Source: Bacilli bacterium
Lineage (GTDB): Bacteria > Bacillota_I > Bacilli_A > ML615J-28 > CAG-313
NCBI GenBank assembly: GCA_045652765.1
Contig: JAZOLG010000020.1
Span: 69,633 to 133,632, forward strand
Direction: 5' to 3'
Length of the DNA: 64,000 bases
The translations under genes and the position numbers were made by a program. The notes under the pieces are model-generated. The model was not told where the DNA came from and did no database searches. It saw only the letters and a list, made by a program, of their open reading frames with translations. Shown here one piece after another: positions 15,115-33,247 of this stretch (within the stretch, counting starts at the first letter, position 1; each line of letters opens with the position of its first letter).

Positions 15115-15117
15115 GAT

Positions 15118-16426: not shown

Positions 16427-16441
16427 ATTTTATTGCCAAAA

Positions 16442-16456: not shown

Positions 16457-16475
16457 AAATAATATTACATTCTAC

Positions 16476-16504
16476 TTGAAAAAAATATGCGTTTTTGGTA
16501 TAAT
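16476..16504 (+). promoter_or_regulatory. Promoter of the 23-kb operon C
   Basis: TTGAAA (16476-16481), 17-bp spacer, TGgTATAAT (16496-16504). AGGAGG RBS lies before the ATG at 16549. Confidence 0.65.
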
Positions 16505-16548: not shown

Positions 16549-18414
16549 ATGGATTATTTAACACCAATGTTTAAAAAAATTAAATATTTTGAAAATTTAA
16601 ATAACAAATTTCTTAATGTTGGTTCGTTAAAAACAATCGATTTTCGCTCTTTTTTTGATGAACGATTAGATATGTTTGTAGAACAGTTAATTGAAAAATA
16701 TCCTACGGATCTAGAAAATGGGTTAATTACAATTAAAAATGGTAAAGTCCCATTTGAAGGATATAAATTACAAATATCTAATCGACGTGCTAATATTACT
16801 GCATCTTCTAAAGAAGGTTGTTATTATGCTCTTGTAACGCTAGAAGAATTAGCAAGAAAATACAATGGTATGATTCCTCCTTTAGAAATTGAAGATTATC
16901 CAGACCTTGCAGTTCGCGGCTTTATGCTTGATATTAGTAGATCAAAAGTAGCCAATGTTGAGACAATTTATAAATATATTGATATTTTAAGCAAATTAAA
17001 ATATAACCATTTTGAATTATATGTTGAAGGATTTTCTTTTGAATATAAGAGCATGCCTTTTGTAAACAAAGATGGTAATTTTATAAGTGTTGAAGAATAT
17101 CAAAAGGTTGAGAAGTATTGTTACGAACATTTTATTGATTTTGTGCCAAATCAAAATGGATTTGGACATATGACTGAATGGTTAAAGTTAGATGAGTTTA
17201 AACATTTATCAAACGTTGATGGACTATTTAATATTTGGGGAAGTAATAGAGTATCATCAACATTAGACCCAACAAATGATGAAAGTTATGAACTTGTTAA
17301 AAAGATGTATGGAGATATGTTGCCTTATAATAAGTCAAAATTCTTTAATATGAATTTTGATGAACCGTATGAACTTGGTTATGGTAGATCAAAAGAATTG
17401 TGTGATAAAACAAGTAGAGAAGATGTCTTTGCAGGATTTTTTAACAAGCTGGCAAGTGTTACAAAATCTTTTGGCAAAACACCGATGCTATGGGGCGATG
17501 TTATTATTCATAAACCAGATGCAATCAACAAAATTGATAAAGATGCGATTTTGATTGATTGGGGTTATAATGAAAATTACCCATTCTTGAAAAATGCACA
17601 AATGTTAAAAAAACTTAAACGACCATATATCTTAGCACCTGGCACATCAACTTGGGGAGTTGTGACATCTAAATACTATGAAATGTTATGGTCAATAAAA
17701 AATGCAGCTGAAGCTGCTTATCATAATGATGGTTTAGGAATAATTTTAACTGACTGGGGTGATTTTGGACATCTCCAATACCCACTCTATAGTTTACCAG
17801 GTATTGCGTATGCAGGATTACTTGCTTGGAACTATCAATCAGTTAGCCATAAACACATTAAAGAATATTTGGATTTACTAGTAAAAAATCATATTATTGT
17901 TGATTTAATTGTTGATGTTTCGATGTATCCTGAGTGTGAAGAATATTATCGTGGTTACTCAACAAAATTGTTTGCACCGATCGTGCAAGCAGAACTTTGT
18001 AAGACAGAAGAAAAAGAACTTGAAGTTTTTAAAACAAAACTTAAGTATCAATTATTGACTGATTATGAAGTACAAAATTATAAAACATATTTTAATTCAC
18101 TAAAGATTAAAATTTCTAGTGTGGACGCTATTAATGCAGAACAATCTTTATTAAAAGATGAAATTGCTAATAGTTTACTTTTACTAGAAACTTTAGTCGA
18201 TGTTAACATTTTTCTAAAAAATTATCTGAATGATTTGGTAGACGAACAACTACTAAATAAAATTGAAGATAATTTATGTAAATATCTTAATTCCCATTAC
18301 AACTTGTGGATATCTCGAAACAAAGAACAAGGATATTCATCAAGCGCTTGTCGTATAGAACGACTTTTATATTGTTTAAAAAATTTAAAGAAAGAGGCAA
18401 CAAATTATGAGTAA
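16549..18414 (+). CDS. Glycoside hydrolase family 20-like beta-N-acetylhexosaminidase, cytoplasmic
   Basis: DYPDLAVRGFMLDISRSKV, KYNHFELYVEG, NQNGFGHM and FNMNFDEPYELG (Asp-Glu pair) resemble the GH20 TIM barrel. No signal peptide. Confidence 0.6.
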   Translation: MDYLTPMFKKIKYFENLNNKFLNVGSLKTIDFRSFFDERLDMFVEQLIEKYPTDLENGLITIKNGKVPFEGYKLQISNRRANITASSKEGCYYALVTLEELARKYNGMIPPLEIEDYPDLAVRGFMLDISRSKVANVETIYKYIDILSKLKYNHFELYVEGFSFEYKSMPFVNKDGNFISVEEYQKVEKYCYEHFIDFVPNQNGFGHMTEWLKLDEFKHLSNVDGLFNIWGSNRVSSTLDPTNDESYELVKKMYGDMLPYNKSKFFNMNFDEPYELGYGRSKELCDKTSREDVFAGFFNKLASVTKSFGKTPMLWGDVIIHKPDAINKIDKDAILIDWGYNENYPFLKNAQMLKKLKRPYILAPGTSTWGVVTSKYYEMLWSIKNAAEAAYHNDGLGIILTDWGDFGHLQYPLYSLPGIAYAGLLAWNYQSVSHKHIKEYLDLLVKNHIIVDLIVDVSMYPECEEYYRGYSTKLFAPIVQAELCKTEEKELEVFKTKLKYQLLTDYEVQNYKTYFNSLKIKISSVDAINAEQSLLKDEIANSLLLLETLVDVNIFLKNYLNDLVDEQLLNKIEDNLCKYLNSHYNLWISRNKEQGYSSSACRIERLLYCLKNLKKEATNYE

Positions 18415-21400
18415 GAAGAAAAAACTCTTAATATTTTCAATTGCTGCACTTTTGGTAATTGCTGCAATCGTACTGATTGGACAACTAACAAAAGAAAAAC
18501 CACTTGAATATACTTACAATCATAGTGCTAACACAGTTGCAAGTATTGAAAATGGTGACTACGCAACATATTTAAGCCAATTGAAAAAACATTTAGGCTT
18601 AAAAGATACTGATGATATTGAGACTCCTCAAAACAAAGCAAAGATTAATGGTGTTGATTATTTCGAAAACGCAAGTGAAATAATTTCAACAACTGCTAAT
18701 CATGAGGCAAAAGTAATTACGGCTTATACTACTGCTGGAGATAGTTTTATTTATGAAGATGGCAAAAAAGTTTCATTGGAAAATATTAACACTCTTATGG
18801 TAGGTAATACAAATGACTTAGTTTACAAAGTAAATATTGATAAAGCTGGTAATTACAACATTGTTGTTAACTATGTAACAACAGATGGTTTAAACACAAT
18901 TTATAGTAGTTTCTCATCTTCTATTGAAAGAAAATTAACTTTAATTACTGGTGATGAAGCTATCAATAAAATCTTTGAAGAAAACATGGGTAATCAAAGT
19001 TATGTATTCTCAAGAGTTTGGAAAAGAGATCCAGGACAAGATAAAACTACAGATATTACAGTTTCTGAATTATCAAAATATGACACTAAACATTCATATT
19101 TAAGTTTAGCAGCAGATACTAAAGGTAATGATGTTAAACCATCTCAAAAAGAAGAAAATAACATTTATGTTTCAGCATATTTATCTGACTACATGGGATA
19201 TGTAACTGAACCATATCAATATTATTTTACTCAAGGTGAAAATACATTAGTGTTCTCAGCTATAAAAGAAAGTATTCAAATTGTAAGTGTAGAAATCCTA
19301 CCTGTTGAAGATACTCCTTCATACAAAGAATATTTAGATGAACATCAAAACGCTGTTAATTCTGCACCTAGCAATTATAGCTACCGTGTAGAAGGTGAAG
19401 CATCTAAATATACTTCATCTCCAACATTAAATCCTATTACAGATAGAACTAGCTCAAACACTTATCCATTCAGTATTAAAAATACTAAATTAAATTCAAT
19501 AGGTGGAGATAGCTGGAAAGTTCTTGGCGACTGGATTATTTGGGAATTTGAAGTTCCTGCTGATGGTTGGTATAATATTTCTTTAAGAGCACGTCAAAAT
19601 CTTGTTCGTGGTATGTACTCTCATAGAAAAGTTTATATTGACAATCAAATTCCATTTGAAGAATTAAAACAAACAGTTTTCCAATTCTCTTCTGATTGGC
19701 AAAATGTTACTTTAGGTTCAAATGATACTGGTGAACCTTTTAAATTCTATCTAAAAGCTGGTAAACACCAAGTTAAGATGGAAGTTACTCTTGGAGTTTA
19801 TGGTGAACTTGTTGAAGAACTTGAAAATATCACAGGTGATTTAAATAAATTATACTTAGATATTATCAAATATACAACAGCTTCTCCAGATACAAACCGT
19901 GACTACAACTTACACAACATGGAAAGCTTCGGAGATTTAAATCTTATGAAGAGACTTGAAGATGCGTCTTTAAGACTTCAAGTTGTTTCAAAAGAAATTG
20001 CAAGAATCTCAAGTAAGAATGCTGACAAAGAAGATACAGTTGGTGATGGTGAAATTTACGAAGATGGTAAGAGTGACAAAACAGGGGTTATCGATACTCT
20101 TGTTGAACAATTAAATTTATTCTTAGAAAATCCAAATAAATTAACAAAACAATTAAGTTCATTTAGTACAAACGTATCAAGCTTAGGTACATTACTTTCA
20201 ACTTTACAAGAGTTCCCATTAACTGTTGACTATCTTGCGGTATATGCGGCTGATGGAGACTACAAAATGCAAAAACCTAATGAAGGATTCTTCAAAAGAA
20301 TTTGGAATTCTATCGTTAGTTTCTTCTACTCATTCATTATTGACTATTCTGAAATCGGTTCATTAAGTGCTGATAAAATAGAAGGTGTTCAAGAAGTTGA
20401 AATTGAAGTTTGGATGACAATGGGTCGTGACCAAGCGAACGTAATTAGAAAATTAATTGACACACAATTCTTAAAAAATGAAGAAGATTTACCAATTATT
20501 AATGGTAAGAAAACTCACATCTCTGTTAATTTAAAATTAACTGGTGCTGACGTATTATTAAGAGCATCACTTGCTGGAGTTGGTCCTGAAGTAGCAATCA
20601 ACGTAGATTCTAGTTTACCTGTTAACTACGGTCTTCGTGGAGCAGCTTTAGACTTACAAGAAGCATTCGGTGATGACTTTACACAACATGTAAATGCTAA
20701 CTTTAAACCAAGTTCTATCAGACAATTTACATTTAATGGTGGAACTTATGCATTGCCAGAAAAACAATTATTTATGATGATGTTCGTAAGAACAGACATT
20801 ATGGAAGAATTATATGGTGAGTCTTGGGAAAGTCATATTCCACAAACTTGGGATGAAGTACTTTCTATGATGACAGACTTACAAACTGATGCATTACAAT
20901 TCTATCTACCAGTTAACGAAGCGGGTGCTTCAGCTCTTAACCCAGCATTTGTAAGTATGTTATATCAACGTGGTGGTAGACTTTATTCAACAGATGCAAA
21001 AGAAAGTGGATTATTAAGTAATGAAAAAATTGACGAAAATGGTCAAACATTAAGTCAAATTGGTATGGATACATTTGAGTATTGGACAGACTTCTATACT
21101 AAATATTCATTCCCACTATCTGCTTCATTCCTTAACCGTTTCCGTTCAGGGGAAATGCCTATCGGTATTTCATACTATGAAATGTACAATACTTTAGCGG
21201 TATTCGCTCCAGAAATTCGTGGTGACTGGGCATTCTATCCAGTTCCTGGAACATTAACTCAAGTAACTGATGATGAAGGTAACATTCATGAAGTTATCAA
21301 TCATACATCTGTAGCATCTGGTTCAGGTGCAATCATTACAGCTAAAAATGCTGAAAGAGATGAACTTAAAAAATATGCTGCATGGGAGTTCTTAAAATGG

Positions 21401-21829
21401 TGGACATCAACAGATATTCAAAGTAACTTCGGTAAAGAAATGGAAGGTATCTTAGGTATCTCTGCTCGTCATGCTACTGCTAACTTTAATGCGTTCCGTA
21501 AATTAGCTTGGCCTCAAGCTGATATGGAAATCTTATTAAAACAATGGGGTGTTGTTACTGATCGTAATAATCAATTAACAATGACTATTGATGGTGAAGA
21601 ATACTTATATGAAATTATTGACGGTGTTAAACATTTATATGGTGTTCGTGAAATTCCACAAATCGCCGGAAGTTATATCACTGGTCGTGAAATCGAAAAT
21701 GCTTATCGTACTGTAATTAACAAAAACGTTAATGCTAAAGAAACATTATATAAATTTGCACAAAATATTAATAACGAAATTGACCGTAAACGTGAAGAAT
21801 TCGGTTTACCACTAAAAGACGATAAATAG
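18407..21829 (+). CDS. Giant (1140 aa) membrane-anchored ABC substrate-binding protein with CBM-like beta-sandwich inserts
   Basis: N-terminal TM LLIFSIAALLVIAAIVLIGQL. Two CBM6/35-like modules (KAGNYNIVVNYV...; YRVEGEASKY...DGWYNISLRARQ...KAGKHQVKMEV). The C-terminal 500 aa or so resemble a family-1 solute-binding protein. Overlaps the GH20 gene by 8 nt. Confidence 0.6.
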   Translation: MSKKKKLLIFSIAALLVIAAIVLIGQLTKEKPLEYTYNHSANTVASIENGDYATYLSQLKKHLGLKDTDDIETPQNKAKINGVDYFENASEIISTTANHEAKVITAYTTAGDSFIYEDGKKVSLENINTLMVGNTNDLVYKVNIDKAGNYNIVVNYVTTDGLNTIYSSFSSSIERKLTLITGDEAINKIFEENMGNQSYVFSRVWKRDPGQDKTTDITVSELSKYDTKHSYLSLAADTKGNDVKPSQKEENNIYVSAYLSDYMGYVTEPYQYYFTQGENTLVFSAIKESIQIVSVEILPVEDTPSYKEYLDEHQNAVNSAPSNYSYRVEGEASKYTSSPTLNPITDRTSSNTYPFSIKNTKLNSIGGDSWKVLGDWIIWEFEVPADGWYNISLRARQNLVRGMYSHRKVYIDNQIPFEELKQTVFQFSSDWQNVTLGSNDTGEPFKFYLKAGKHQVKMEVTLGVYGELVEELENITGDLNKLYLDIIKYTTASPDTNRDYNLHNMESFGDLNLMKRLEDASLRLQVVSKEIARISSKNADKEDTVGDGEIYEDGKSDKTGVIDTLVEQLNLFLENPNKLTKQLSSFSTNVSSLGTLLSTLQEFPLTVDYLAVYAADGDYKMQKPNEGFFKRIWNSIVSFFYSFIIDYSEIGSLSADKIEGVQEVEIEVWMTMGRDQANVIRKLIDTQFLKNEEDLPIINGKKTHISVNLKLTGADVLLRASLAGVGPEVAINVDSSLPVNYGLRGAALDLQEAFGDDFTQHVNANFKPSSIRQFTFNGGTYALPEKQLFMMMFVRTDIMEELYGESWESHIPQTWDEVLSMMTDLQTDALQFYLPVNEAGASALNPAFVSMLYQRGGRLYSTDAKESGLLSNEKIDENGQTLSQIGMDTFEYWTDFYTKYSFPLSASFLNRFRSGEMPIGISYYEMYNTLAVFAPEIRGDWAFYPVPGTLTQVTDDEGNIHEVINHTSVASGSGAIITAKNAERDELKKYAAWEFLKWWTSTDIQSNFGKEMEGILGISARHATANFNAFRKLAWPQADMEILLKQWGVVTDRNNQLTMTIDGEEYLYEIIDGVKHLYGVREIPQIAGSYITGREIENAYRTVINKNVNAKETLYKFAQNINNEIDRKREEFGLPLKDDK

Positions 21830-21847
21830 AAATAGGAGGAAATAAAT

Positions 21848-23200
21848 ATGAAAATCTTTTTATATGTTGCATTCTCATTAATATTTGCTCTTATTACTTA
21901 TAAATTCGTAAAAGTTATTCTAAAGAATCAAAAATTGAACAAAAATAAAGTTCAATTAACTCGTGCAGAAAAACAAAAAATTGCGATTGAAAAGAAAGAA
22001 AATCGTTCTGAAGAAAAACGTTTATTACGTGAAGCAATGGCACAAAAGAAAGCTGAATGGAAAGCTGAAGATGCCGCTGCTGATGCTGAAGCAAAGCAAA
22101 ATATTATTGATTTGAAACAACAAATTGAAGAAGCAAAACCAATCTGGGAAGAGTATCATAAACGCTATAAAGAAAACCCAGAAGATGAAAAAGCTGTTGA
22201 AGAATATTTCGAATATAATAAGTTCTACAACCGCTTATTACAAAAATTACGTATTGAAAAAGAACGTGTATCTCTAACTCGTAAAATGGAACGTTGGAGT
22301 AAACGTGGAGGTAGATTACGTAGGGAAATTTTCATTAAGAGACAATACTACTATTTAGTAGCTCCTTATGTAATTTTATTCTTTGTATTTACAGTTTTAC
22401 CTGTAGTAATCTCATTAGTATTGAGTTTTACAAACTTTAACCTATTAGAGTTCCCAGACTTTGTAGGTTGGACAAACTACATGCGTTTGTTCGTAGATGA
22501 TGAAAACTTTATGACAGCTATTAAAAATACATTAATCTTAGCTGTTGTAACAGGTCCATTAAGTTATTTAATGGCTTTCGTATTTGCGTGGTTAATTAAT
22601 GAACTTCGTCCAAGACTTCGTTCATTCATGACATTAATTTTCTATGCACCATCTATTTCAGGTTCTGCATACTTAGTATGGAAATTAATCTTCTCAAGTG
22701 ATAGTTATGGTTACGCAAATGCATACTTAATTAAATTTGGTATTTTAAATGAACCAGTTCAATGGTTACAAAATGAAACGTACATAATTTGGATCATCAT
22801 GATCGTACAATTATGGTTAAGTTTAGGTGTAAGTTTCTTATCATTCATTGCCGGTTTACAAGGTGTTGATAAAACATTATACGAAGCAGGTGCAATTGAT
22901 GGTATTAGAAACCGTTGGCAAGAGTTATGGTTTATAACTTTACCACAAATGAAATCACAATTAATGTTCGGGGCCGTAATGCAAATTACATCAAGTTTAT
23001 CTATTGCTGATGTATCAGTTCAGATGGCAGGTTTCCCATCAGTCAACTACGCCGGACATACAATTATCACTCACTTGATGGACTATGGTAACATCCGTAT
23101 GGAAATGGGTTACGCATCAGCCATCGCAACAGTACTATTCCTAATCATGATACTTGCAAATATGTTAGTACGTAAAATTTTAAGAAGGGTAGGTAGCTAA
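21848..23200 (+). CDS. CUT1-type sugar ABC transporter permease (MalF-like) with about 170-aa charged N-terminal extension
   Basis: C-terminal 280 aa or so show the typical six-TM permease and EAA-type loop (YEAGAIDGIRNRWQELWFITLPQM). The N-terminus has one TM followed by a Lys/Glu-rich helical region. Confidence 0.8.
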   Translation: MKIFLYVAFSLIFALITYKFVKVILKNQKLNKNKVQLTRAEKQKIAIEKKENRSEEKRLLREAMAQKKAEWKAEDAAADAEAKQNIIDLKQQIEEAKPIWEEYHKRYKENPEDEKAVEEYFEYNKFYNRLLQKLRIEKERVSLTRKMERWSKRGGRLRREIFIKRQYYYLVAPYVILFFVFTVLPVVISLVLSFTNFNLLEFPDFVGWTNYMRLFVDDENFMTAIKNTLILAVVTGPLSYLMAFVFAWLINELRPRLRSFMTLIFYAPSISGSAYLVWKLIFSSDSYGYANAYLIKFGILNEPVQWLQNETYIIWIIMIVQLWLSLGVSFLSFIAGLQGVDKTLYEAGAIDGIRNRWQELWFITLPQMKSQLMFGAVMQITSSLSIADVSVQMAGFPSVNYAGHTIITHLMDYGNIRMEMGYASAIATVLFLIMILANMLVRKILRRVGS

Positions 23201-23202
23201 TA

Positions 23203-24216
23203 ATGGCAGATAAATTTGATGATGCAATTGGCGGTGCGGAGTTATCCAAAGCCGAGTTAAAAAGTATTAAACGTCAACAAAAATTAGCCAAAAAATATGG
23301 TATTCGTGATGAAGCTACCATGGGCAAAGTTGAACGATTCTTCTATTTACGTGCTAAGAAAAGAAGAATTAAGAAAAAGAAAAGAATGAGCAGAAGTTTA
23401 GGTGGAGACATTGCTTTATTCATGATGTTGTTATTCTTTGGTTTATTTAGTGCTTACCCACTAGTTTACTCAATCAATGCTGCATTTAAACCTTTAAATG
23501 AATTATTCATTTTCCCACCAAGATTATTCGTACAAAACCCTACAACAGATAACTTTACAGACCTTGCAATGTTGATGCAAGACTCTTGGGTTCCTTTCTC
23601 AAGATATTTCTTTAATACAATCTTCATTACATTAATGGGTACAATTGGTCACGTAATCATTGCTTCAATGGCTGCGTATCCTCTTGCAAAACATAGATTC
23701 CCAGGTAGTAAAGTAATTTTCGGTTTAGTAGTTTATTCTTTAATGTTCGCTGCACAAGTTACAGCAACACCTAAATACATTATCTTTAGTGTTTTAGGAC
23801 TTGTAGATACTCAATGGGCTATTATTATTCCAGCCTTTGCTTATTCATTAGGTCTATACTTGATGAAACAGTTTATGGATGATATTCCAATGGAATTAAT
23901 TGAATCAGCAAAAATTGATGGTGCAAACGAATTCCAAATTTACTGGCGTATAGTTATGCCACTAGTAAAACCAGCATGGTTAACACTTATTATTCTATTA
24001 TTCCAACAATTATGGAATAACGATGGTGGAACATTCATTTATAGTGAACAATTAAAACCATTAAGTTACTCACTACACCAAATCGTTGCCGGTGGTGTTG
24101 CGAGAACAGGTAGTGCCTCTGCCGTTATCTTAATTATGATGATTGTGCCAATTACTGTCTTTGTATTATCACAAAGTCAAATCATTGAAACAATGGCGCA
24201 TTCAGGTATGAAGTAG
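23203..24216 (+). CDS. CUT1-type carbohydrate ABC transporter permease (MalG-like) with basic N-terminal extension
   Basis: EAA loop ESAKIDGANEFQIYWRIVMPLVKP. About 65-aa N-terminal extension containing KKRRIKKKKR. Confidence 0.8.
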   Translation: MADKFDDAIGGAELSKAELKSIKRQQKLAKKYGIRDEATMGKVERFFYLRAKKRRIKKKKRMSRSLGGDIALFMMLLFFGLFSAYPLVYSINAAFKPLNELFIFPPRLFVQNPTTDNFTDLAMLMQDSWVPFSRYFFNTIFITLMGTIGHVIIASMAAYPLAKHRFPGSKVIFGLVVYSLMFAAQVTATPKYIIFSVLGLVDTQWAIIIPAFAYSLGLYLMKQFMDDIPMELIESAKIDGANEFQIYWRIVMPLVKPAWLTLIILLFQQLWNNDGGTFIYSEQLKPLSYSLHQIVAGGVARTGSASAVILIMMIVPITVFVLSQSQIIETMAHSGMK

Positions 24217-24228
24217 GAGGTACAAAAA

Positions 24229-26112: not shown

Positions 26113-26775
26113 ATGAAAGTATTAAATTACATTAAAAAGTTATTAAGTGCTTTTTATGAAAACTTCGTTAAAGTTCCTCTAAGATTATTATCACATCCAG
26201 TACTTGGATATACAGAATTTAAAGAAGATAAAAAAGGCAAATTAAGTGTTGGTATCGGAATGGTATTAATTTATGCATTACTAACAATTATTCGTTATAA
26301 TACTGATGGTATCATTATCAACAAAAACGACCCTACAAAATTTAATAGTATTCTATTAATAGTTTATGCAGTAATGCCACTTGTAATTTTATCAGTTGCT
26401 AACTGGAGTATTTCAACTCTTATGGATGGTAAAGCAACTATGAAACAAATCTTTACAATGGGTGGTTATTCTTATTTTCCATTAATTATTTTTGGAATTA
26501 TCAACTTAGTATTAAGTAATGTATTAACTGTTGATGAAGCAGACATGATCGTTTTATTTACAGTTTTAGGTTTTGCGTTAACTGTTTATATGATTTTTAT
26601 GGGACTAGTAGTATTACAAGAATATGGTGTTGCGAAAGCTGTTTGGACTGTAATCCTTACAATTGTTGCAACTGCTGTTATTCTATTTATTGCACTTCTT
26701 GTCTTCGACTTATCACAACAAATATACGGTTTCTTCTACTCATTGTATAAAGAAATTGTATCGAGATTCTTATAG
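26113..26775 (+). CDS. Yip1-domain-like polytopic membrane protein
   Basis: 220 aa with five predicted TMs after a short N-terminal segment (LLSHPVLGYTEFKEDKKGK). Start is adjacent to the upstream stop. Family call is from memory of Firmicute Yip1 proteins. Confidence 0.5.
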   Translation: MKVLNYIKKLLSAFYENFVKVPLRLLSHPVLGYTEFKEDKKGKLSVGIGMVLIYALLTIIRYNTDGIIINKNDPTKFNSILLIVYAVMPLVILSVANWSISTLMDGKATMKQIFTMGGYSYFPLIIFGIINLVLSNVLTVDEADMIVLFTVLGFALTVYMIFMGLVVLQEYGVAKAVWTVILTIVATAVILFIALLVFDLSQQIYGFFYSLYKEIVSRFL

Positions 26776-26787
26776 GAGGTAGTCGAG

Positions 26788-29700
26788 ATGAAATTAAGAT
26801 GGCCTAAATTTTTAACAGTTAAAAGAACAATTTTATTTGCATTGTTATTATTTGTAATAATCTTTGCATTAGTTTATTTCTTCGGTGGTTATAAAGCTTC
26901 TGCTTTAAGTAGTGATTTGATGGAATTTAATCCTGATGGATTTAAGCACATTGATCAATATATCAAAGATGAAGAAGCAGATAATCAAGCAGAATTTGAT
27001 AAATTATTAAATGAGTTAACTGTAGCAAATTATGATGAAAAAATTGATGCTGTTATTGCAGCATGTACTACAGTAACTTATTTAAACCAATTAAATGCTA
27101 AACTTTCTGAATTGCAAAAAGCTGATGATGATAATGATGATAAATATCAACACAATCTTGATTCTAATTCATTAATCACAACAGAAGAGTTTGCAAAACA
27201 AACAATGAATGAATTCCGTCCATGTTTAGAAAAATTAGATGCAAATGGAACAGGTTATAAATTAGAATTGAATTACTTTACAACTCAATTTAAAATTATT
27301 CGTTTTGAAAAAGGCGAAAAAGTAAATGAATGGTATTCAAACCCTCAAAATACTGATTACACTGCTAGTGTTGGTTCAACACTTGCTAACCAAAAAAGTC
27401 CATTGATTCTTTATTACTACACACCAAATGGAGCTACTCTTCCATATAGTGCTTTTGAATATTCAATCAATGATAACCAAGGATCAGCGGAGGCTCCTAC
27501 ATACGTTGATCAAACATTTAGTTATGACATAGATCCAACAAATGGAACTCTACAAGTATATTATGAGTTACAATCTAAAGGACATAAGTATTATGACTAT
27601 CCAAAATATTTAACTCCTGAACGTGTTAATGAATTAATTCAACGTAACAAGGATTATGTTGCAGCTGAACTTGCTGCTTTTGATACAAAAAATATGAGTG
27701 AATTACAAGAATATTTTAATGATCATTACGCAGTAAGATATATTAAAAGACCAAATGAAATTGGTTCAAAACGTCAAGGACTTATTGGACCTGAATCATA
27801 TAAATATTTTGTAGAAAAATTTAAATACAATGATTCTGATTACAAAAATGTAAACATTGATAACATTGTTTCACGTTTTAAAAGTATGGTAGATGCTAAT
27901 AAAATTGAAGATGTCAGAAATTTATGTAAAATTATGTTTAGATTAGAATATGAATATACAGATTCTAAACATGAATTTGTTAAAGATGGAAATATCTTAA
28001 AGACTTCAGATGCTTCTGAATTCTTAAAAAACCAATATAAATTGGATGATACATTAAGTGACTCTGCTCATCCATTCCCATTCTATGAAATCGTAGATAA
28101 TTATGATGAAACTATGGGTTACAGATCTAGCCAATTTATTTCTCAAACATTAAAGAAATTCCAATATTCTGAAGAAGATTTAAAAGCTGATCAAGAATTA
28201 TTTGGAGTTGAAATTGTTTCAAATAAACCTTCATTTAAAGTTGGTGTACAATATTCATTAACAGATAAAGGATTTGAAGCAAAAGTTATTAACAACTCAC
28301 TTTCTGAGTCATTACCTGAAAAGTATCCAATCTATAAGATTGAAATACTTCCATATTTCTCAGCAATTAGTGCTGATTATGCTCCTTATCAATATGCCGA
28401 TGGTAAAAAACAAATTGATAAAATTAACACATTAGAATCTAATGGGTATATGGTTATTCCTGATGGTAGCGGTGGTATCATTAATTTAAATAATGGTAAA
28501 TTTGCTTATCAAAAACGTGTATATTCAACTGATTTAGCGTTTGTTGATGAAGTTAAAAAGACTGCTTCTGAAGATGTATTATTACCAATGTTTGGTTTAA
28601 CTTATGACTCTGTAGACTTCTCAAGTGTTGCTCCTGGAAAAGAAGGAGGCTTTAGAGGAAGCAGCGTTATCGCAAGAGCTACTCAAGGTGCTTCTCAAAT
28701 GATTCTAACAGCTGGTGTTAGTGCAGCAAGTGATGCTTATAACAGAATTTGCTTCGCTGCAACATATAGAGAATCACAAACAGTAACAATTGGTACTGGT
28801 TACTATGCTAACCCAGTTACTCAAGTTACTCCAACAAATGTAAAAACTGACTTTACTGTTGAGTATTCACTAATTAATGAACAAGGTTTAACATATTCTG
28901 ATATCGCAAAACGTTATCAAGAAATGTTATATGGTGATGTTTTAGAACAAAATGCTCAAGACAAAACTAATACTCCAGTTCTTAATGCTGAATATTTAGG
29001 TTTATATGACTATAAAACAAACTTCTTAGGTATTGTATATAATGGTCATGATAGTTTAACAACTTATTCACAAGCTATTGACGTAACTAAAAAATTACAA
29101 GAATGGGGCGCTGAAAAGATTAACGTAATGTATCTTGGATGGCAAGATTCTGGTTTAGTTAACGAAACATTTAATGATATGAAGTTTACAAAAGACTTAG
29201 GTAATAAGAAAGAACTTCAATCAATGTTAAATTATTTCAAAGAAAATGATGTAACACTTTATCCAAATGTTAGCTTCCTTGAAGTAAACAAAATAAACGA
29301 ATCATTTGGTAAGATTAGATATGCATCTCGTGACATTTCTAATGAATTTACTGAAAAATATCCATATGATTTAGCAAGTGGTGTTTTTGATAAAAAACAA
29401 CGTGCAATCTATACTATTTCTCCAAAATTCTTCGATGTATTCTCAAGTAATTTAGTGGAAAATTTCAAAAAGAATAATCCTGAACTTGAAAGTATGGCAT
29501 TCGAAAAATTAGGATCAAAAATTGTAGGTGACTACAAGAAAAAGAATGAATTCTTTAGATTCAATTCTGTTGTTGAACAAATTAATGTATTTGAAAAATT
29601 AAATGCTAACAACATTAAAAATTTAACATTAACTGCTCCTTATGAATTTGCAGTTAAATATGCTAATAACATTGTTGAATTACCTTATGAATCAACATTA

Positions 29701-30249
29701 TTAGACATCTTTGATTATTCTATTCCTTTCTATCAATTAGTATTCTCTGGATACCGTGATTATAGTGGTATGAATATTAATGCTAATGACGAAAAAGGAT
29801 TAAATTATCATATTATGAAAATTCTTGAAACTGGTTCAAATATTGAGTTTACATTCAGTTATGACGATTCAAATGAATTAATTCAAACTGATTATAACTA
29901 TTATTACTATACTCATTATTTAGACTGGGCTAAAGAAGTAAGTTCATTATTAACAGTATTAAATAAATTAGAATTACACAAATATTACTTAGCTTCTCAC
30001 GAATGTGTAGCTGGTAATACTTCAGTATTTAAAGTTACTTATAAAGTTAAAGATGAATGCAAAGCACAAGTTAGTGATCCTGAATTCTCAATCTATTTGA
30101 ATTACTCAGATATGAATGTTAATTTAAGTGATACATTAACATACATTGACATCGAAAATAGTGATGCTCAATATAATCCGTTTAAAAATCAAACAACTGG
30201 TGGTATTTTAGATCCATGGAGTTGTGCAACAGATAAGGAGGTAGCTTAA
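26788..30249 (+). CDS. Large N-terminally anchored extracytoplasmic protein, DUF5696-like (possible TIM-barrel glycosidase)
   Basis: 1153 aa with a single N-terminal TM (ILFALLLFVIIFALVYFFGG). Segment KINVMYLGWQDSGLVNETFNDMKF...DVTLYPNVSF looks like a glycosidase barrel strand pattern. The DUF5696 assignment is from memory and unverified. Confidence 0.4.
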   Translation: MKLRWPKFLTVKRTILFALLLFVIIFALVYFFGGYKASALSSDLMEFNPDGFKHIDQYIKDEEADNQAEFDKLLNELTVANYDEKIDAVIAACTTVTYLNQLNAKLSELQKADDDNDDKYQHNLDSNSLITTEEFAKQTMNEFRPCLEKLDANGTGYKLELNYFTTQFKIIRFEKGEKVNEWYSNPQNTDYTASVGSTLANQKSPLILYYYTPNGATLPYSAFEYSINDNQGSAEAPTYVDQTFSYDIDPTNGTLQVYYELQSKGHKYYDYPKYLTPERVNELIQRNKDYVAAELAAFDTKNMSELQEYFNDHYAVRYIKRPNEIGSKRQGLIGPESYKYFVEKFKYNDSDYKNVNIDNIVSRFKSMVDANKIEDVRNLCKIMFRLEYEYTDSKHEFVKDGNILKTSDASEFLKNQYKLDDTLSDSAHPFPFYEIVDNYDETMGYRSSQFISQTLKKFQYSEEDLKADQELFGVEIVSNKPSFKVGVQYSLTDKGFEAKVINNSLSESLPEKYPIYKIEILPYFSAISADYAPYQYADGKKQIDKINTLESNGYMVIPDGSGGIINLNNGKFAYQKRVYSTDLAFVDEVKKTASEDVLLPMFGLTYDSVDFSSVAPGKEGGFRGSSVIARATQGASQMILTAGVSAASDAYNRICFAATYRESQTVTIGTGYYANPVTQVTPTNVKTDFTVEYSLINEQGLTYSDIAKRYQEMLYGDVLEQNAQDKTNTPVLNAEYLGLYDYKTNFLGIVYNGHDSLTTYSQAIDVTKKLQEWGAEKINVMYLGWQDSGLVNETFNDMKFTKDLGNKKELQSMLNYFKENDVTLYPNVSFLEVNKINESFGKIRYASRDISNEFTEKYPYDLASGVFDKKQRAIYTISPKFFDVFSSNLVENFKKNNPELESMAFEKLGSKIVGDYKKKNEFFRFNSVVEQINVFEKLNANNIKNLTLTAPYEFAVKYANNIVELPYESTLLDIFDYSIPFYQLVFSGYRDYSGMNINANDEKGLNYHIMKILETGSNIEFTFSYDDSNELIQTDYNYYYYTHYLDWAKEVSSLLTVLNKLELHKYYLASHECVAGNTSVFKVTYKVKDECKAQVSDPEFSIYLNYSDMNVNLSDTLTYIDIENSDAQYNPFKNQTTGGILDPWSCATDKEVA

Positions 30250-30250
30250 G

Positions 30251-31495
30251 ATGGAAGAAAAAGATCTACTAGAAGAAGTTCAAACAGCTGAATCTACTGA
30301 AAATGAATCTGTTCATAAATTAATGGATATTAACAAAGATGAAAAAGAAGTAAAAGGATTTGCGAAAATCAAAGAAAAAGTTTCTCGCGGTTTTAGAAAT
30401 TTATTAAATAAAATTTCAAGTTTCTTAAACAGTAATAAATTTGGACGTGGATTAAAGAAAGTGTTCAAATATATTGGTTTATTCTTCTACTACTTAGCTT
30501 ATCCATTCGTATTATTTAAACGTAAATGTTATGATAAATGGACTAGTAAAGGTCAAAAATTATTCGTAGCTATTTTATTCTTAACACCTGTAGTTCTTGG
30601 GTTCTTAATTTTCTATTTGTACCCAATGATAATGTCATTAATTTATTCATTTAGTGGAGTTGTTTCTGACAATGGTGTTCATGTTTCTTTTGGACAATTT
30701 ATTCATCCTGAAACAAAAATTGAAACAAAAGATTTCTTTGGAAATTATAAGTATGCATTTACTGAATTAATGTTCCCTACTCGTGGAGCTGACTTCGGTA
30801 GTGATGAAAAAATCAGTTTTATTCAAGCATTGACTGAAACTGGTTTCCAAACTATTTTAGATGCAATCGTTATTACAATCTTTAGTTTATTAATTGCTGT
30901 TATGTTAAATGGTAACTTTAAAGGAAGAGCAGTTGCTAGAGCAATTTTCTTCTTACCAGTTATCTTAAACTCTGAAGCTATCACAGCTGCAACAGATTCA
31001 ACAGCAGCTATTGACTCTGTACTTAACTCGATTGGTCAAAATGCCCTCAGTCAAATCTTTGACATGAAAGCATTCTTTACTCAAATTGGTATACCTGCTA
31101 AGATTGTTACATTTTTAAGTGATATTACTTCGACTATCTATAGTACAATTTCTTATGCCGGTGTTCAAATCTTAATCTTCTTAGCAGCCATTCAATCTGT
31201 TCCTGGTCATTTATATGAAGCAGCAAAAATTGAAGGTGCTACTAAGTATGAATCATTCTGGAAAATTACTTTACCAATGGTTTCTCCAATGATTTTAACA
31301 GTTGTAGTATATACAATCGTTGACTCATTCTTAAGAAGTGACTTAAGTTACTACTTGAAATCATTATGTCAAAACTACAAGTATGGTCTACATGCGGCTG
31401 TATCTTGGTGTTATATCTTATTATCATTATTGATTTTAGGTATCGCATTATTATTCTTGAAGAAGGTGGTGTTCTATCATGATGAACGAAAATAA
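30251..31495 (+). CDS. CUT1-type sugar ABC transporter permease (second pair) with about 100-aa N-terminal extension
   Basis: EAA loop YEAAKIEGATKYESFWKITLPMVSP. The acidic/basic N-terminal extension has an extra TM. Confidence 0.8.
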   Translation: MEEKDLLEEVQTAESTENESVHKLMDINKDEKEVKGFAKIKEKVSRGFRNLLNKISSFLNSNKFGRGLKKVFKYIGLFFYYLAYPFVLFKRKCYDKWTSKGQKLFVAILFLTPVVLGFLIFYLYPMIMSLIYSFSGVVSDNGVHVSFGQFIHPETKIETKDFFGNYKYAFTELMFPTRGADFGSDEKISFIQALTETGFQTILDAIVITIFSLLIAVMLNGNFKGRAVARAIFFLPVILNSEAITAATDSTAAIDSVLNSIGQNALSQIFDMKAFFTQIGIPAKIVTFLSDITSTIYSTISYAGVQILIFLAAIQSVPGHLYEAAKIEGATKYESFWKITLPMVSPMILTVVVYTIVDSFLRSDLSYYLKSLCQNYKYGLHAAVSWCYILLSLLILGIALLFLKKVVFYHDERK

Positions 31496-32528
31496 AGTAC
31501 CATCAAAAGCAAAGTTAAAATACGAACAAATTCTTAGGGATTTAAGAAATCCGGTTAAGAAAGCCGTAAGAACACAAAAAGTTGCTGATAAACTATCATC
31601 ATTATTCAGAGCAATAATTCTTCTTGGGTTATCATTCGTTATTATTTTCCCAATTTTCCAACAAATTTCATTAGCGTTTAGACACCCTGCGGATATTCAA
31701 AATAAACTTGTTATTTGGATTCCTGAAACATGGTCTGTTTTAAACTTTAAAATTGCTTATAGAATACTTGATTATTTGAACGCATTGTTCAATAATATTC
31801 GTGTATCATTAATCGTTATGATCGGACAAGTTGCATGTTCAGTACTTGCTGGTTATGCACTTGCAAGATTAAAATTTAAAGGAAGTAATGTAATTTTCTT
31901 AGTTTTACTTGCTACATTCATTATTCCACCTCAAGCCGTTTCTGTATCAAGAATGTTATATTTCTCTGACTTTGATATTCTTGGTATTATTGGTTTATTC
32001 AATGGTGGAAAAGGACTTGTTTTATCTGGTTCAAGATTTATTCTATATATTATGGCATTTACTGGACAAGGTATTAACAACGCAATCTTCATTTTCTTAT
32101 TCAGACAATTCTTTAGAGGCGTTCCAGTTGAACTTGAAGAATCTGCAGAAATTGATGGAGCTGGTGTATTTAGAACATTCTGGAGTATCATGCTTCCAAA
32201 TGCTCGTGGTGTAATGGTTACAGTTATGTTATTCTCATTCGTATGGCAATGGAATGATGTATACTATACAAGTTTATTAGAACTTTCTACTAATGATTTC
32301 CCATTACTTACAATGAAACTTTTAAATACAGCTGAAAGACTTCCTAACTTTATGAAGATCTATAAATTAGACCAATTAGTTGACCCGGAAATCCGTGGTA
32401 ACTCGATGTTTATTTCGCTTATTGCAAATACTGCTGGTTTCTTGATGATGCTTCCACTTTTAGTTGGTTATCTATTCGTACAAAAATTATTTGTTGAAGG
32501 TATTGAAAGAACTGGTATTGTAGGTTAA
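31479..32528 (+). CDS. CUT1-type carbohydrate ABC transporter permease (second pair)
   Basis: EAA loop ESAEIDGAGVFRTFWSIMLPNARG. Overlaps the upstream gene by 17 nt. Confidence 0.8.
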   Translation: MMNENKVPSKAKLKYEQILRDLRNPVKKAVRTQKVADKLSSLFRAIILLGLSFVIIFPIFQQISLAFRHPADIQNKLVIWIPETWSVLNFKIAYRILDYLNALFNNIRVSLIVMIGQVACSVLAGYALARLKFKGSNVIFLVLLATFIIPPQAVSVSRMLYFSDFDILGIIGLFNGGKGLVLSGSRFILYIMAFTGQGINNAIFIFLFRQFFRGVPVELEESAEIDGAGVFRTFWSIMLPNARGVMVTVMLFSFVWQWNDVYYTSLLELSTNDFPLLTMKLLNTAERLPNFMKIYKLDQLVDPEIRGNSMFISLIANTAGFLMMLPLLVGYLFVQKLFVEGIERTGIVG

Positions 32529-32557
32529 TCAATGCTAAAATAAATCGAGGATGAATT

Positions 32558-33247
32558 ATGAAAAGCAAAATATTGAATAGTAAAGCATATCAAGTATTTG
32601 ATTACATATGTCGTTTAGTTATTCTGAATTTATTGCTGGTCATAATATCATTCTCGATTTTTCTTATTATGATCAACATATTTCCGAATATGAAAAATAT
32701 TTATCGAATACTTTGTTTAATACCAACAGCACTAAATTTCTTGCCATGTGTTGTGGCTATTGCTGATGTTATTAAAGGATATGAAATAGAAAAAAATACA
32801 GGTATTTTTAAAGAATTTTTTACAGGTTTTAAAAAATATTTTTCTAAAGCATCATTACTAAGTGTGCTTTTAATTGGATGTATATTATTGATTACAAATA
32901 GTGTAACTTTCTTTAGTACAATGCAATCAACAGGTGTTATATACACGATTGGCTTTGGACTATCATTATCATTAATTGTTGTTTTGATAATAGGATTTAT
33001 TCATCTACCACTAGTAATGATTTATTTCGATGATTTGAAGTTGGTTCATTATATTAAACTAAGTTTAATATTCGGATTTAAAGATCTTGGATTAACTTTA
33101 TTATTAACATTATTTGTTATTGGGACTATTGTCCTTTGTTACTTAATGAGTTTTTATTTAGTAGTTTTAGCATTTAGCTTAGCAATATATTTAATAATTA
33201 AATTAACAAAAAATAAATATTTTAAAATTTCTGAAAGGAATAAATAA
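32558..33247 (+). CDS. YesL/DUF624 family membrane protein
   Basis: 229 aa. N-terminus YQVFDYICRLVILNLLLVIISFSIF and six TMs are typical of DUF624 proteins found beside sugar ABC systems. Confidence 0.65.
   Translation: MKSKILNSKAYQVFDYICRLVILNLLLVIISFSIFLIMINIFPNMKNIYRILCLIPTALNFLPCVVAIADVIKGYEIEKNTGIFKEFFTGFKKYFSKASLLSVLLIGCILLITNSVTFFSTMQSTGVIYTIGFGLSLSLIVVLIIGFIHLPLVMIYFDDLKLVHYIKLSLIFGFKDLGLTLLLTLFVIGTIVLCYLMSFYLVVLAFSLAIYLIIKLTKNKYFKISERNK

What the first reader, a model, noticed from the sequence alone, without database searches (positions are those of the whole stretch)
18407..33247. Uncharacterised envelope module inside the 23-kb operon: giant binding protein, two permease pairs, NHL/TPR propeller, Yip1-like, DUF5696-like and YesL proteins, no ATPase
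SEEN: nine consecutive, tightly coupled genes encode only membrane or extracytoplasmic proteins. They are a 1140-aa TM-anchored binding protein; MalF/MalG-like pair 1; an exported beta-propeller plus TPR protein with a C-terminal TM; a 5-TM Yip1-like protein; an 1153-aa N-anchored protein with a barrel-like segment; MalF/MalG-like pair 2; and a DUF624 protein. One operon holds two permease pairs but a single binding protein, and there is no nucleotide-binding subunit anywhere in 64 kb. INFERENCE: the propeller/TPR, Yip1-like and DUF5696-like trio is inserted exactly between the two permease pairs. This suggests a dedicated surface processing or hand-over complex for long glycan chains rather than a plain importer. 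I know of no functional description for this combination.
Basis: partly seen in the sequence, partly recalled or inferred. Interest (0 to 1): 0.75.

Follow-up and report, generated by a model that had tools for sequence, protein, structure and literature searches.

The report
Conserved Firmicute sugar-uptake cassette with accessory trio
The nine genes are real and are one copy of an eight-gene cassette found in the same order across many Firmicutes: two sugar-permease pairs, a giant tethered binding protein, and three uncharacterised surface or membrane proteins, one with a glycosidase fold; I found no paper that describes it.

Summary
All nine ORFs and their family assignments were confirmed, and the 64 kb window encodes no ABC ATPase.

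1. The trio is not a local insertion. The order giant SBP, permease pair, NHL/TPR, Yip1, DUF5696, permease pair recurs colinearly in more than 70 loci. These come from uncultured Bacilli, Lachnospiraceae, Oscillospiraceae, Ruminococcus, Paenibacillus, Thermobacillus and Halalkalibacter.
2. The cassette is not specific to amino sugars. Elsewhere it sits beside mannan, xylan, pectin, fructan, alpha-galactoside and GH123 genes. It was never found without the four permeases.
3. DUF5696 is a distant homologue of glycoside hydrolase family GH129, by both fold and profile.
4. A missing ATPase is normal for these importers, and Paenibacillus cellulosilyticus has a MalK-type ATPase gene directly upstream. 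A second, divergent binding lipoprotein lies at 44248-45861.

NHL/TPR and Yip1 are fused into one protein in two Paenibacillus species, which argues that they work together.

The best reading is a dual ABC oligosaccharide importer with a surface capture and processing complex, powered by an ATPase encoded elsewhere. No paper in the searched library describes the cassette. The mechanism is inferred, not shown.

The parts
16400..16504 (+). Start of the transcription unit: hairpin terminator (16400-16422), LacI/cre-like operator half-site (16443-16456), and promoter TTGAAA-17-TATAAT with an extended TG (16476-16504).
   Evidence: consensus matches only
16549..18414 (+). GH20 beta-N-acetylhexosaminidase-like gene, first gene of the operon. 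It overlaps the giant SBP start by 8 nt. A GH20 gene sits in the same position in the Bacilli-lineage relatives.
18407..21829 (+). Giant binding protein (1140 aa), tethered by an N-terminal TM helix. It has CBM35-like beta-sandwich modules, a coiled-coil stalk and a C-terminal CUT1-type SBP domain (residues 650-1140).
21848..23200 (+). Permease P1 (MalF/UgpA-like, 450 aa). The EAA loop is present. A charged N-terminal extension is specific to the Bacilli lineage.
23203..24216 (+). Permease P2 (MalG/UgpE-like, 337 aa). The EAA loop is present.
24229..26112 (+). Exported six-bladed NHL beta-propeller plus TPR protein (627 aa) with a C-terminal TM anchor and a basic cytoplasmic tail.
26113..26775 (+). 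Yip1-family membrane protein (220 aa; five to six hydrophobic segments). Its start abuts the NHL gene stop. It is fused to the NHL/TPR protein in Paenibacillus.
26788..30249 (+). DUF5696 protein (1153 aa), anchored at the N-terminus, with a GH129-like ectodomain: beta-sandwich, (beta/alpha)8 barrel, beta-sandwich. Near-invariant D915, D976 and E1014.
30251..31495 (+). Permease P3 (MalF-like, 414 aa). The EAA loop is present.
31479..32528 (+). Permease P4 (MalG-like, 349 aa). The EAA loop is present. It overlaps P3 by 17 nt.
32558..33247 (+). Six-TM DUF624/MusI-like accessory membrane protein. It is not part of the conserved core.
44248..45861 (+). Lipoprotein (537 aa, LVGC lipobox) homologous to the small SBPs that follow P4 in other cassettes. 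It is a candidate binding protein for P3/P4.
45982..46659 (+). Second DUF624/MusI-like membrane protein, directly after the small SBP-like gene.

Best explanation
The region is the local copy of a widespread, ancient Bacillota cassette. The core is eight genes, with an optional DUF624/MusI-like ninth gene.

Proposed mechanism:
1. Two CUT1-type ABC permease heterodimers, P1P2 and P3P4, are both competent to dock a MalK/MsmK-type ATPase that is encoded elsewhere in this genome.
2. P1P2 is served by a membrane-tethered giant binding protein. Its CBM35-like modules and coiled-coil stalk hold a CUT1 SBP domain above the membrane.
3. P3P4 is served by an ordinary small lipoprotein SBP. Here that is probably the 44248-45861 product.
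4. Between the two pairs lies an extracytoplasmic and membrane trio. The NHL-propeller/TPR protein is coupled to a Yip1-like membrane protein and probably acts as a scaffold. The membrane-anchored GH129-like DUF5696 protein probably binds or trims incoming oligosaccharides at the cell surface and hands the products to the permeases.
5. The flanking enzymes set the substrate. In this genome the cargo is most likely GlcNAc/MurNAc-containing cell-wall fragments, which are then catabolised by the GH3, NagB, NamZ, MupG, AnmK and MurQ genes nearby.

Shown: gene content, topology, the conserved order, the GH129-type fold, the fusion proteins, and an ATPase next to one homologous cassette.

Inferred: physical complex formation, catalysis by DUF5696, which SBP serves which permease pair, and the cargo.
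For: Conserved order:
- The order is the same in about 20 genome loci anchored on DUF5696.
- It is the same in 44 of 44 informative metagenome loci anchored independently on the NHL protein. Every incomplete case ends at a contig end.
- Annotated cultured examples are Butyrivibrio fibrisolvens D1, Paenibacillus cellulosilyticus, Paenibacillus baekrokdamisoli (name as given by the protein source), Thermobacillus composti KWC4 and Halalkalibacter sp.; an Acetatifactor MAG carries it too.

Permeases:
- Four distinct orthogroups exist. Identity across loci is 55% (P1-P1), 49% (P2-P2), 35% (P3-P3) and 36% (P4-P4). Identity between paralogues is about 23% (P1-P3) and 24% (P2-P4), even within one locus.
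- All four keep the EAA coupling loop.

ATPase: a MalK-type ATPase gene (ABC_tran + OB_MalK + TOBE_2) lies directly upstream of the P. cellulosilyticus cassette. Shared ATPases are established for such importers (PMC7658222, PMC5730181).

NHL/TPR and Yip1: they are fused in one 719-aa and one 699-aa protein with a consistent topology.

DUF5696:
- The AF2 model has pLDDT 87.5.
- Foldseek top hits are GH129 ZgGH129 (E 3e-21) and NagBb (E 5e-18), followed by GH101, GH36 and GH31.
- The family profile hits GH129 sequences at 1.2e-9 and 3.3e-6.
- D915, D976 and E1014 are conserved in 84-99% of members.

Giant SBP: CUT1 SBP, best match Lin1841 at 3.6e-30, plus a CBM35-like hit and a coiled coil.

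Small SBP: it follows P4 directly in 28 metagenome loci and about 8 genome loci. The window lipoprotein matches the small-SBP HMM at 7.6e-20.

Conservation pattern: DUF5696 (26%) and the small SBP (25%) are the least conserved parts. P1 and P2 (about 50%) are the most conserved. This fits substrate-contacting parts versus chassis parts.

Amino-sugar context: GH20, cassette, NAGPA, GH3, NagB is syntenic in a sheep-colon Bacilli MAG.
Against: - There is no experimental or structural evidence for a complex.
- A glycosidase kept in loci for chemically unrelated glycans is odd if it is substrate-specific.
- The giant SBP is fairly conserved across loci (34% identity, more than the small SBP). This argues that it may not read the variable substrate.
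- In P. cellulosilyticus the downstream neighbours are LLM oxidoreductases, not CAZymes.
- Distant DUF5696 homologues occur outside any cassette (L025, L027).
- The small-SBP candidate lies 11 kb away in another transcription unit.
Confidence: 0.6

Rival explanations
1. These are two ordinary, independent CUT1 importers. The three genes between them are unrelated envelope proteins kept by operon inertia, with no joint machine.
For: Each permease pair resembles a standard MalFG/UgpAE pair. A small SBP usually follows P4, so P3P4 plus that SBP looks self-sufficient.
Against: The order is invariant across classes of Bacillota in more than 70 loci with different flanking genes. Gene junctions are tight or overlapping. 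NHL and Yip1 are fused in Paenibacillus. The NHL-anchored scan never found the trio without both permease pairs.
Confidence: 0.1
2. The cassette is mainly a sensor. The giant SBP, P1P2 and the NHL/TPR-Yip1 pair would detect extracellular glycan and signal to locus regulators, and only P3P4 with the small SBP would import.
For: NHL propellers serve as extracellular sensor domains, as in PknD (1rwi hit). P1, P2 and the giant SBP are much more conserved than expected for substrate-specific parts. Two-component or AraC regulators sit next to several cassettes.
Against: No signalling output domain occurs in any cassette protein. P1 and P2 keep their EAA loops. The regulators differ between loci (LacI, AraC-type response regulator, or none nearby), which is typical of any Gram-positive PUL.
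Confidence: 0.12
3. DUF5696 is a non-catalytic pseudo-glycosidase that only binds or holds glycans, or acts as a structural spacer in the wall. The complex would capture but not process.
For: The same family serves loci for unrelated glycans. Identity to real GH129 enzymes is only 11-13%. Some consensus acidic positions are changed in the window protein: N827 and K907 where the family consensus is Asp.
Against: D976 and E1014 are 99% conserved and D915 is 84% conserved across 80 diverse members. D915 and D976 follow predicted barrel strands 4 and 6, the canonical catalytic positions. That placement is inferred from the DSSP order.
Confidence: 0.2
4. The module works on the cell's own envelope, for example turnover or remodelling of wall glycopolymers to open a path through peptidoglycan, and does not feed on external glycans.
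For: In this window it is embedded among peptidoglycan-recycling genes: NamZ, MupG, AnmK, MurQ, a Mur ligase (possibly Mpl-like), NAGPA and GH20.
Against: In most other genomes the neighbours degrade plant or dietary glycans and include no wall-recycling genes.
Confidence: 0.06

Closest known systems
CUT1-family ABC sugar importers of Firmicutes energised by a shared MsmX/MsmK ATPase (B. subtilis AraNPQ, YesOPQ and others; PMC7658222, PMC5730181)
   Same: Both have MalF/MalG-type permease pairs with EAA loops and an SBP_bac_1 binding protein. The ATPase gene is absent from the operon. One homologous cassette has a MalK-type ATPase next to it.
   Different: This cassette has two fixed permease pairs in one unit. 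Its SBP is about 1000 aa, TM-tethered, and carries CBM-like modules and a coiled coil. Three extra conserved envelope proteins are not known for any characterised CUT1 system.
Glycoside hydrolase family GH129 (NagBb alpha-N-acetylgalactosaminidase, 5wzn; ZgGH129 3,6-anhydro-D-galactosidase, 5opq/8rzk), and more remotely GH101, GH36 and GH31
   Same: The DUF5696 ectodomain shares the three-domain fold (Foldseek E 1e-18 to 1e-21, TM 0.5-0.6). Profile-level sequence homology is detectable (1e-9).
   Different: Identity is only 11-13%. DUF5696 is a separate Pfam family. It is membrane-anchored and always encoded inside a transporter cassette. Its catalytic residues are not mapped and its activity is unknown.
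MusEFGK2I maltose importer of Corynebacterium glutamicum and Gardnerella (PMC13008276, PMC10101108)
   Same: It is an ABC sugar importer whose operon includes an extra small polytopic membrane protein (MusI). The window's DUF624 proteins hit the MusI_fam model weakly.
   Different: The scores are far below the family cut-off (33-49 bits against 160). The DUF624 gene is not part of the conserved core. The Mus system has no NHL, Yip1 or DUF5696 component.
YknWXYZ of Bacillus (PMC4887032)
   Same: It is the only bacterial precedent found here for a Yip1-family membrane protein (YknW) acting as an accessory subunit of an ABC transporter. In Thermobacillus composti, YknX-like and MacB/FtsX-like genes directly follow the cassette.
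   Different: YknYZ is a MacB-type exporter with a membrane-fusion protein. The window has neither, and its permeases are type I importer TMDs.
Gram-positive polysaccharide utilisation loci (PMC5320581), with Bacteroidota Sus-like systems as a functional analogue
   Same: Transporter, glycan-binding and glycosidase functions are encoded together with CAZymes and a regulator. Capture and processing at the surface precede import.
   Different: There is no SusC/SusD and no outer membrane. The cassette is a fixed chassis reused across substrates. Its accessory proteins have no described counterpart in gpPUL literature that I could search.

Membership tests
CUT1-type ABC importer (type I, binding-protein dependent) | Two integral-membrane subunits with the BPD_transp_1 fold and an EAA coupling loop | tested here: met
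   Pfam BPD_transp_1 is found in all four permeases. NCBIfam hits are to UgpA/UgpE, MalF/MalG and GlcT/GlcU. EAA motifs are present.
CUT1-type ABC importer (type I, binding-protein dependent) | Extracytoplasmic family-1 solute-binding protein | tested here: met
   SBP_bac_1 scores 1.7e-16. The profile hits CUT1 SBP structures, with Lin1841 at 3.6e-30.
CUT1-type ABC importer (type I, binding-protein dependent) | MalK/MsmK-type nucleotide-binding subunit | tested here: not met
   None is encoded in the 64 kb window. One is present directly upstream of the homologous Paenibacillus cellulosilyticus cassette. An ATPase supplied in trans is common for this family (PMC7658222). The rest of the genome could not be examined.
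CUT1-type ABC importer (type I, binding-protein dependent) | ATP-dependent uptake of an oligosaccharide | not testable with these tools
   Requires transport assays.
Pfam DUF5696 (PF18952) | Score above the gathering threshold over the full model | tested here: met
   392.7 bits against a 25.6 cut-off, covering model positions 1-602 of 612.
Glycoside hydrolase family GH129 | N-terminal beta-sandwich, (beta/alpha)8 barrel and C-terminal beta-sandwich fold | tested here: met
   The model has pLDDT 87.5. The top Foldseek hits are 5opq, 8rzk and 5wzn, at E 3e-21 to 5e-18 and TM 0.5-0.6.
Glycoside hydrolase family GH129 | Significant sequence similarity to family members (the CAZy criterion) | tested here: inconclusive
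   Similarity appears only at profile level: 1.2e-9 to ZgGH129 and 3.3e-6 to NagBb, in short segments. A single sequence gives nothing below E = 1 (one search was marginal, E 0.045). Identity is 11-13%.
Glycoside hydrolase family GH129 | Catalytic nucleophile Asp and acid/base residue in equivalent positions | tested here: inconclusive
   Conserved D915, D976 and E1014 exist. No coordinates or structural alignment were available. hhalign against GH36 found nothing.
Yip1 domain family (PF04893) | Pfam match above threshold and a multi-span (about 5 TM) topology | tested here: met
   51.3 bits against a 28.6 cut-off. Five to six hydrophobic segments.
DUF624 / MusI family | Score above the curated cut-off | tested here: not met
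   Pfam gives 22.6 bits against 24.2. NCBIfam MusI_fam gives 32.8 bits against 160. Homology is weak but the six-TM topology is similar.
YknWXYZ-type transporter | MacB-type permease/ATPase and a membrane-fusion protein alongside the Yip1 protein | tested here: not met
   None is present in the window. YknX-like and FtsX/MacB_PCD genes follow the cassette only in T. composti.
Gram-positive PUL (PMC5320581) | A glycan-degrading enzyme, a carbohydrate transporter and a regulator encoded together | tested here: met
   The same strand run carries GH20, GH3, three GHL10, two NAGPA, NamZ and MupG genes, the ABC cassette, and a LacI gene at 3105-4130. Operator-like sites lie at both promoters.

The most novel reading that the evidence does not exclude
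The giant CBM-bearing SBP, the NHL/TPR-Yip1 unit and the GH129-like DUF5696 protein assemble with two permease pairs into a single membrane 'utilisome'. This would be a Gram-positive counterpart of the Bacteroidota Sus machinery. It would be a reusable chassis that captures glycan chains at the cell surface, cleaves them with a new glycoside-hydrolase family, and feeds two import channels. DUF5696 would then found a new CAZy family, and bacterial Yip1 proteins would gain a defined role as ABC-transporter scaffolds.
Probability: 0.3. Interest if true: 0.8.

Novelty: new variant of a known kind. Interest (0 to 1): 0.65.

Why it matters
Firmicutes dominate fibre fermentation in the gut and rumen, yet their glycan uptake is described almost entirely as 'SBP plus two permeases'.

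This cassette is large and common:
- The DUF5696 family has about 5,000 clusters at 50% identity.

It recurs with a fixed architecture next to enzymes for many different dietary and host glycans. It contains three protein families with no assigned function.

Working it out could have three results. It could define a new glycoside-hydrolase family. It could give bacterial Yip1 and NHL/TPR proteins a role. It could change how Gram-positive polysaccharide utilisation loci are predicted and annotated.

Cultured carriers make it directly testable: Butyrivibrio fibrisolvens D1, Thermobacillus composti KWC4 and several Paenibacillus species.

In this window it also marks an uncultured gut Bacilli lineage that appears to scavenge bacterial cell-wall sugars.

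Tried and rejected
- **Exact look-up of the window DUF5696 protein.** It is not in the collection.
- **The search for homologous proteins with the AT-rich window protein and with alignment A1.** Both returned the same 12 proteins because the word filter saturated. A Clostridial query (P0012) gave 682.
- **First AF2 run.** It used the full-length protein with 10 sequences and was poor in the DUF5696 domain, with pLDDT below 50. An 80-sequence alignment of the domain alone fixed this. A 147-sequence alignment was too large to submit.
- **Metagenome scan with the 17-sequence NHL alignment.** A 5-sequence alignment worked.
- **Mapping catalytic residues by profile-profile comparison with GH36 genes from related loci.** Protein comparison failed, and hhalign found no relation (probability 0.1).
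- **Relaxed Pfam scan of DUF5696 proteins for GH101/GH129-type models.** It gave no hits.
- **Literature.** 'DUF5696' and 'PF18952' gave 0 papers. Combinations of Yip1, NHL, ABC transporter, solute-binding and Butyrivibrio gave nothing relevant.
- **Idea rejected: the two permease pairs are a recent duplication.** Paralogue identity is only about 23%.
- **Idea rejected: the cassette is specific to amino sugars.** The flank census shows otherwise.
- **Idea rejected: DUF5696 is always bound to a cassette.** L025 and L027 show otherwise.
- **Plasmid search.** It gave only two carriers.

Full report
**Observation.** The window is about 30% G+C, and nearly all genes from 1.8 to 53.7 kb lie on the + strand. 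The nine ORFs are at the stated coordinates. Junctions range from a 17-nt overlap to a 29-nt gap.

Pfam and NCBIfam confirm every assignment:
- A 1140-aa protein whose SBP_bac_1 domain occupies only residues 701-1005.
- Four BPD_transp_1 permeases that pair as MalF/UgpA-like plus MalG/UgpE-like.
- An NHL protein.
- A Yip1 protein.
- A DUF5696 protein (4e-117).
- A weak DUF624/MusI-like protein.

A profile built from 17 orthologues shows that the 627-aa protein is a six-bladed NHL propeller followed by TPR repeats. It has an N-terminal signal and a C-terminal TM helix with a basic tail.

No ABC ATPase is encoded anywhere in the window. No LSGGQ signature occurs in any frame, and no ORF has an ABC_tran hit. 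A terminator hairpin and the best promoter match precede the GH20 gene at 16549. A hairpin with a T-run follows nagB near 39.6 kb. A transcription unit of about 23 kb is therefore plausible.

**Surroundings.** The operon and its neighbours form an amino-sugar and peptidoglycan-fragment catabolic locus:
- Glycosidase-type genes: three GHL10, GH20, two NAGPA phosphodiester glycosidases, a GH3 NagZ-like gene, NamZ and MupG.
- Downstream catabolism: NagB, a BadF-type kinase, AnmK and a MurQ-like SIS protein.
- Peptide-stem genes: an M19 dipeptidase, a beta-lactamase-fold protein and a Mur-ligase-family protein (possibly Mpl-like).
- Others: a PIG-L deacetylase, GNATs and a LacI regulator.

**The cassette is conserved.** Close relatives of the DUF5696 protein (41-96% identity) come from uncultured gut 'Bacilli' MAGs. 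They carry the same GH20, nine-gene block, NAGPA, GH3, NagB synteny.

A relative with only 26% identity sits in a mannan locus (GH26, GH130, LacI), yet has the same order: giant SBP, two permeases, NHL, Yip1, DUF5696, two permeases.

I called ORFs in 25 genome loci and mapped them with HMMs built from the window proteins. This order appeared in every locus with enough flanking DNA. The sources were Bacilli, Lachnospiraceae, Oscillospiraceae, Acutalibacteraceae, Ruminococcus, Anaerotaenia, Herbinix and Mobilitalea.

Among the 80 loci fetched, 44 of 44 with sufficient sequence carry the complete eight-gene order. Every shorter pattern stops at a contig end.

Annotated examples, five in cultured or named organisms plus one MAG:

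| Organism | Record | Notes |
|---|---|---|
| Butyrivibrio fibrisolvens D1 | plasmid pNP243 | two small SBPs follow P4 |
| Paenibacillus cellulosilyticus | unnamed 509-kb plasmid | ATPase upstream; NHL-Yip1 fused |
| Paenibacillus baekrokdamisoli (name as given by the protein source) | GCA_014191785.1 | two GH123 upstream; NHL-Yip1 fused |
| Thermobacillus composti KWC4 | CP003255.1 | GH10, GH43, GH127 downstream |
| Halalkalibacter sp. | GCA_023017105.1 | GH10, GH43 downstream |
| Acetatifactor sp. (MAG) | ENA ERZ14208509 | PL11, GH32, GH172, GH43 nearby |

Flanking genes differ widely: GH26/GH130, GH36, GH10/GH43/GH127, GH35, GH123, PL11/GH32/GH172, and LLM oxidoreductases in one case.

The cassette is therefore a substrate-independent chassis. 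The test 'trio without ABC permeases' is not met.

The DUF5696 family as a whole has about 4,960 clusters at 50% identity. Two distant members lie outside any cassette, in a sigma-factor context and in an FtsK/PhoH context.

**The two permease pairs.** Identity within each position across loci is 55% for P1, 49% for P2, 35% for P3 and 36% for P4. Identity between paralogues is about 23-24%, even inside one locus. There are thus four old orthogroups, not a recent duplication and not an insertion into one operon. All four keep the EAA loop that docks the ATPase.

**ATPase.** Its absence is ordinary. CUT1 importers of Firmicutes commonly share one MsmX/MsmK ATPase (PMC7658222, PMC5730181). None of the 80 metagenomic loci has an ATPase next to the cassette. 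In P. cellulosilyticus a MalK-type gene (ABC_tran, OB_MalK, TOBE_2) lies directly upstream of the giant SBP gene. This supports MalK-type energisation.

**Binding proteins.** Both halves of the giant protein are conserved in all cassettes. Its C-terminal part is a CUT1 SBP, closest to the Lin1841 sophoro-oligosaccharide binder at 3.6e-30. Its N-terminal part gives a CBM35-like match and coiled-coil matches.

An ordinary 460-630-aa SBP directly follows P4 in about 8 genome loci and 28 metagenome loci. The window lacks one at that place. However, the 537-aa lipoprotein at 44248-45861 is the only window ORF that matches an HMM of those small SBPs (7.6e-20). It also matches the Pfam-confirmed L003 SBP at 5e-11. 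A second DUF624/MusI-like gene follows it.

'One binding protein for two permease pairs' therefore holds for the operon, but probably not for the system.

**DUF5696.** With an 80-sequence alignment, the ectodomain (window 28105-30249) folds confidently, at pLDDT 87.5 and pTM 0.87. Foldseek places it next to GH129 enzymes: ZgGH129 at E 3e-21 and NagBb at E 5e-18, with TM 0.5-0.6. GH101, GH36 and GH31 follow.

The family profile detects GH129 sequences at 1.2e-9 and 3.3e-6, so this is homology and not only a shared fold.

D915, D976 and E1014 (full-length numbering) are conserved in 84%, 99% and 99% of 80 diverse members. From the order of strands and helices in the model, D915 and D976 follow barrel strands 4 and 6. 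Those are the positions of the nucleophile and acid/base in this superfamily. This placement is my inference and was not checked on coordinates.

The positive-inside rule puts the domain outside the cell.

**NHL/TPR and Yip1.** The two genes abut or overlap. In two Paenibacillus species they are one polypeptide. It reads: signal, NHL/TPR ectodomain, the usual TM helix, a cytoplasmic linker, then the Yip1 helices. This Rosetta-stone fusion is the strongest computational evidence that the two act together.

The only bacterial precedent I found for a Yip1 protein in a transporter is YknW of YknWXYZ (PMC4887032). In T. composti, YknX-like and MacB/FtsX-like genes follow the cassette. That is a single observation.

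**Conservation pattern.** Median identity across eleven cassettes:

| Component | Median identity (%) |
|---|---|
| P1 | 53 |
| P2 | 49 |
| P3 | 35 |
| P4 | 35 |
| Giant SBP | 34 |
| Yip1 | 32 |
| NHL | 31 |
| DUF5696 | 26 |
| Small SBP | 25 |

I read DUF5696 and the small SBP as the parts that adapt to the substrate. I read P1 and P2 as the most constrained chassis, perhaps because they contact several partners. This is inference.

**Mechanism proposed.**
1. Enzymes of each locus release oligosaccharides at the surface.
2. The tethered giant SBP collects them through its CBM-like modules and delivers them to P1P2.
3. The anchored GH129-like protein binds or trims chains.
4. The small SBP feeds products to P3P4.
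5. NHL/TPR-Yip1 holds the assembly together.
6. A MalK/MsmK ATPase encoded elsewhere powers both channels.

In this genome the cargo is probably GlcNAc/MurNAc-containing wall fragments. Only the parts list, the conserved order, the fold and the fusion are shown. Everything else is inferred. Rival readings are scored separately: independent importers, a sensing device, a non-catalytic DUF5696, and self-wall remodelling.

**Novelty.** No paper in the searchable library mentions DUF5696 or PF18952, or describes this gene combination. That library omits most subscription journals, so prior description cannot be excluded.

I rate the finding as a new variant of a known kind. It is an ABC sugar importer with an undescribed, conserved accessory module and a probable new GH family. 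The main corrections are that the cassette is general and not a local oddity, that the missing ATPase is unremarkable, and that the tie to muropeptides is specific to this lineage.

Noticed in passing
window 16443-16456, 39685-39698, 39728-39741: LacI/cre-like operator matches (TGNAANCGNTTNCA, one mismatch each) sit at the promoters of the cassette operon and of the next operon. A LacI-family gene lies at 3105-4130. The overall count is not above chance (5 found against 2.75 expected), but three of the five matches lie at these two promoters.
   Followed up: partly
window 39587-39640: A hairpin with a long loop (AAGGGTCTTT...AAAGACCCTT) followed by a T-run comes after the nagB stop. It is a likely terminator ending the 23-kb operon, and the scanner missed it.
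   Followed up: partly
window 58739-58931 (-): A T-box leader (106 bits) lies upstream of the tryptophanyl-tRNA synthetase gene at 57701-58699.
   Followed up: no
window 39769-43197: A 1142-aa exported protein with a C-terminal TM anchor has no Pfam or NCBIfam hit. It is the first gene of the downstream operon, which also holds the small SBP-like lipoprotein.
   Followed up: no
window 21848-22360, 23203-23400, 30251-30550: P1, P2 and P3 of the Bacilli lineage carry long, highly charged N-terminal extensions. P1 also has an extra N-terminal TM helix. These are absent from the roughly 300-aa orthologues in Clostridia and Paenibacillus.
   Followed up: partly
L113 14456-18404 (Thermobacillus composti KWC4, CP003255.1): A YknX-like membrane-fusion protein and a FtsX/MacB_PCD permease directly follow the cassette. 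This recalls YknWXYZ, whose YknW subunit is a Yip1 protein. It is a single example.
   Followed up: no
L111 15964-25187 (Paenibacillus cellulosilyticus plasmid): This cassette is followed by four LLM-class flavin oxidoreductases and two further SBPs, not by CAZymes. The cargo may therefore not always be a glycan.
   Followed up: no
L025 3900-6014 and L027 9422-11632: Distant DUF5696 homologues (22-24% identity) in Acutalibacteraceae and Ruminococcaceae lie outside any cassette. Their neighbours are a sigma factor and a Mur ligase in one case, and FtsK and PhoH in the other.
   Followed up: partly
window 9626-16389 and 33249-37256: Three GHL10 (PF02638) paralogues and two NAGPA phosphodiester-glycosidase paralogues flank the cassette. 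The NAGPA genes hint at cleavage of GlcNAc-1-phosphate linkage units of wall polymers. That is my inference.
   Followed up: no
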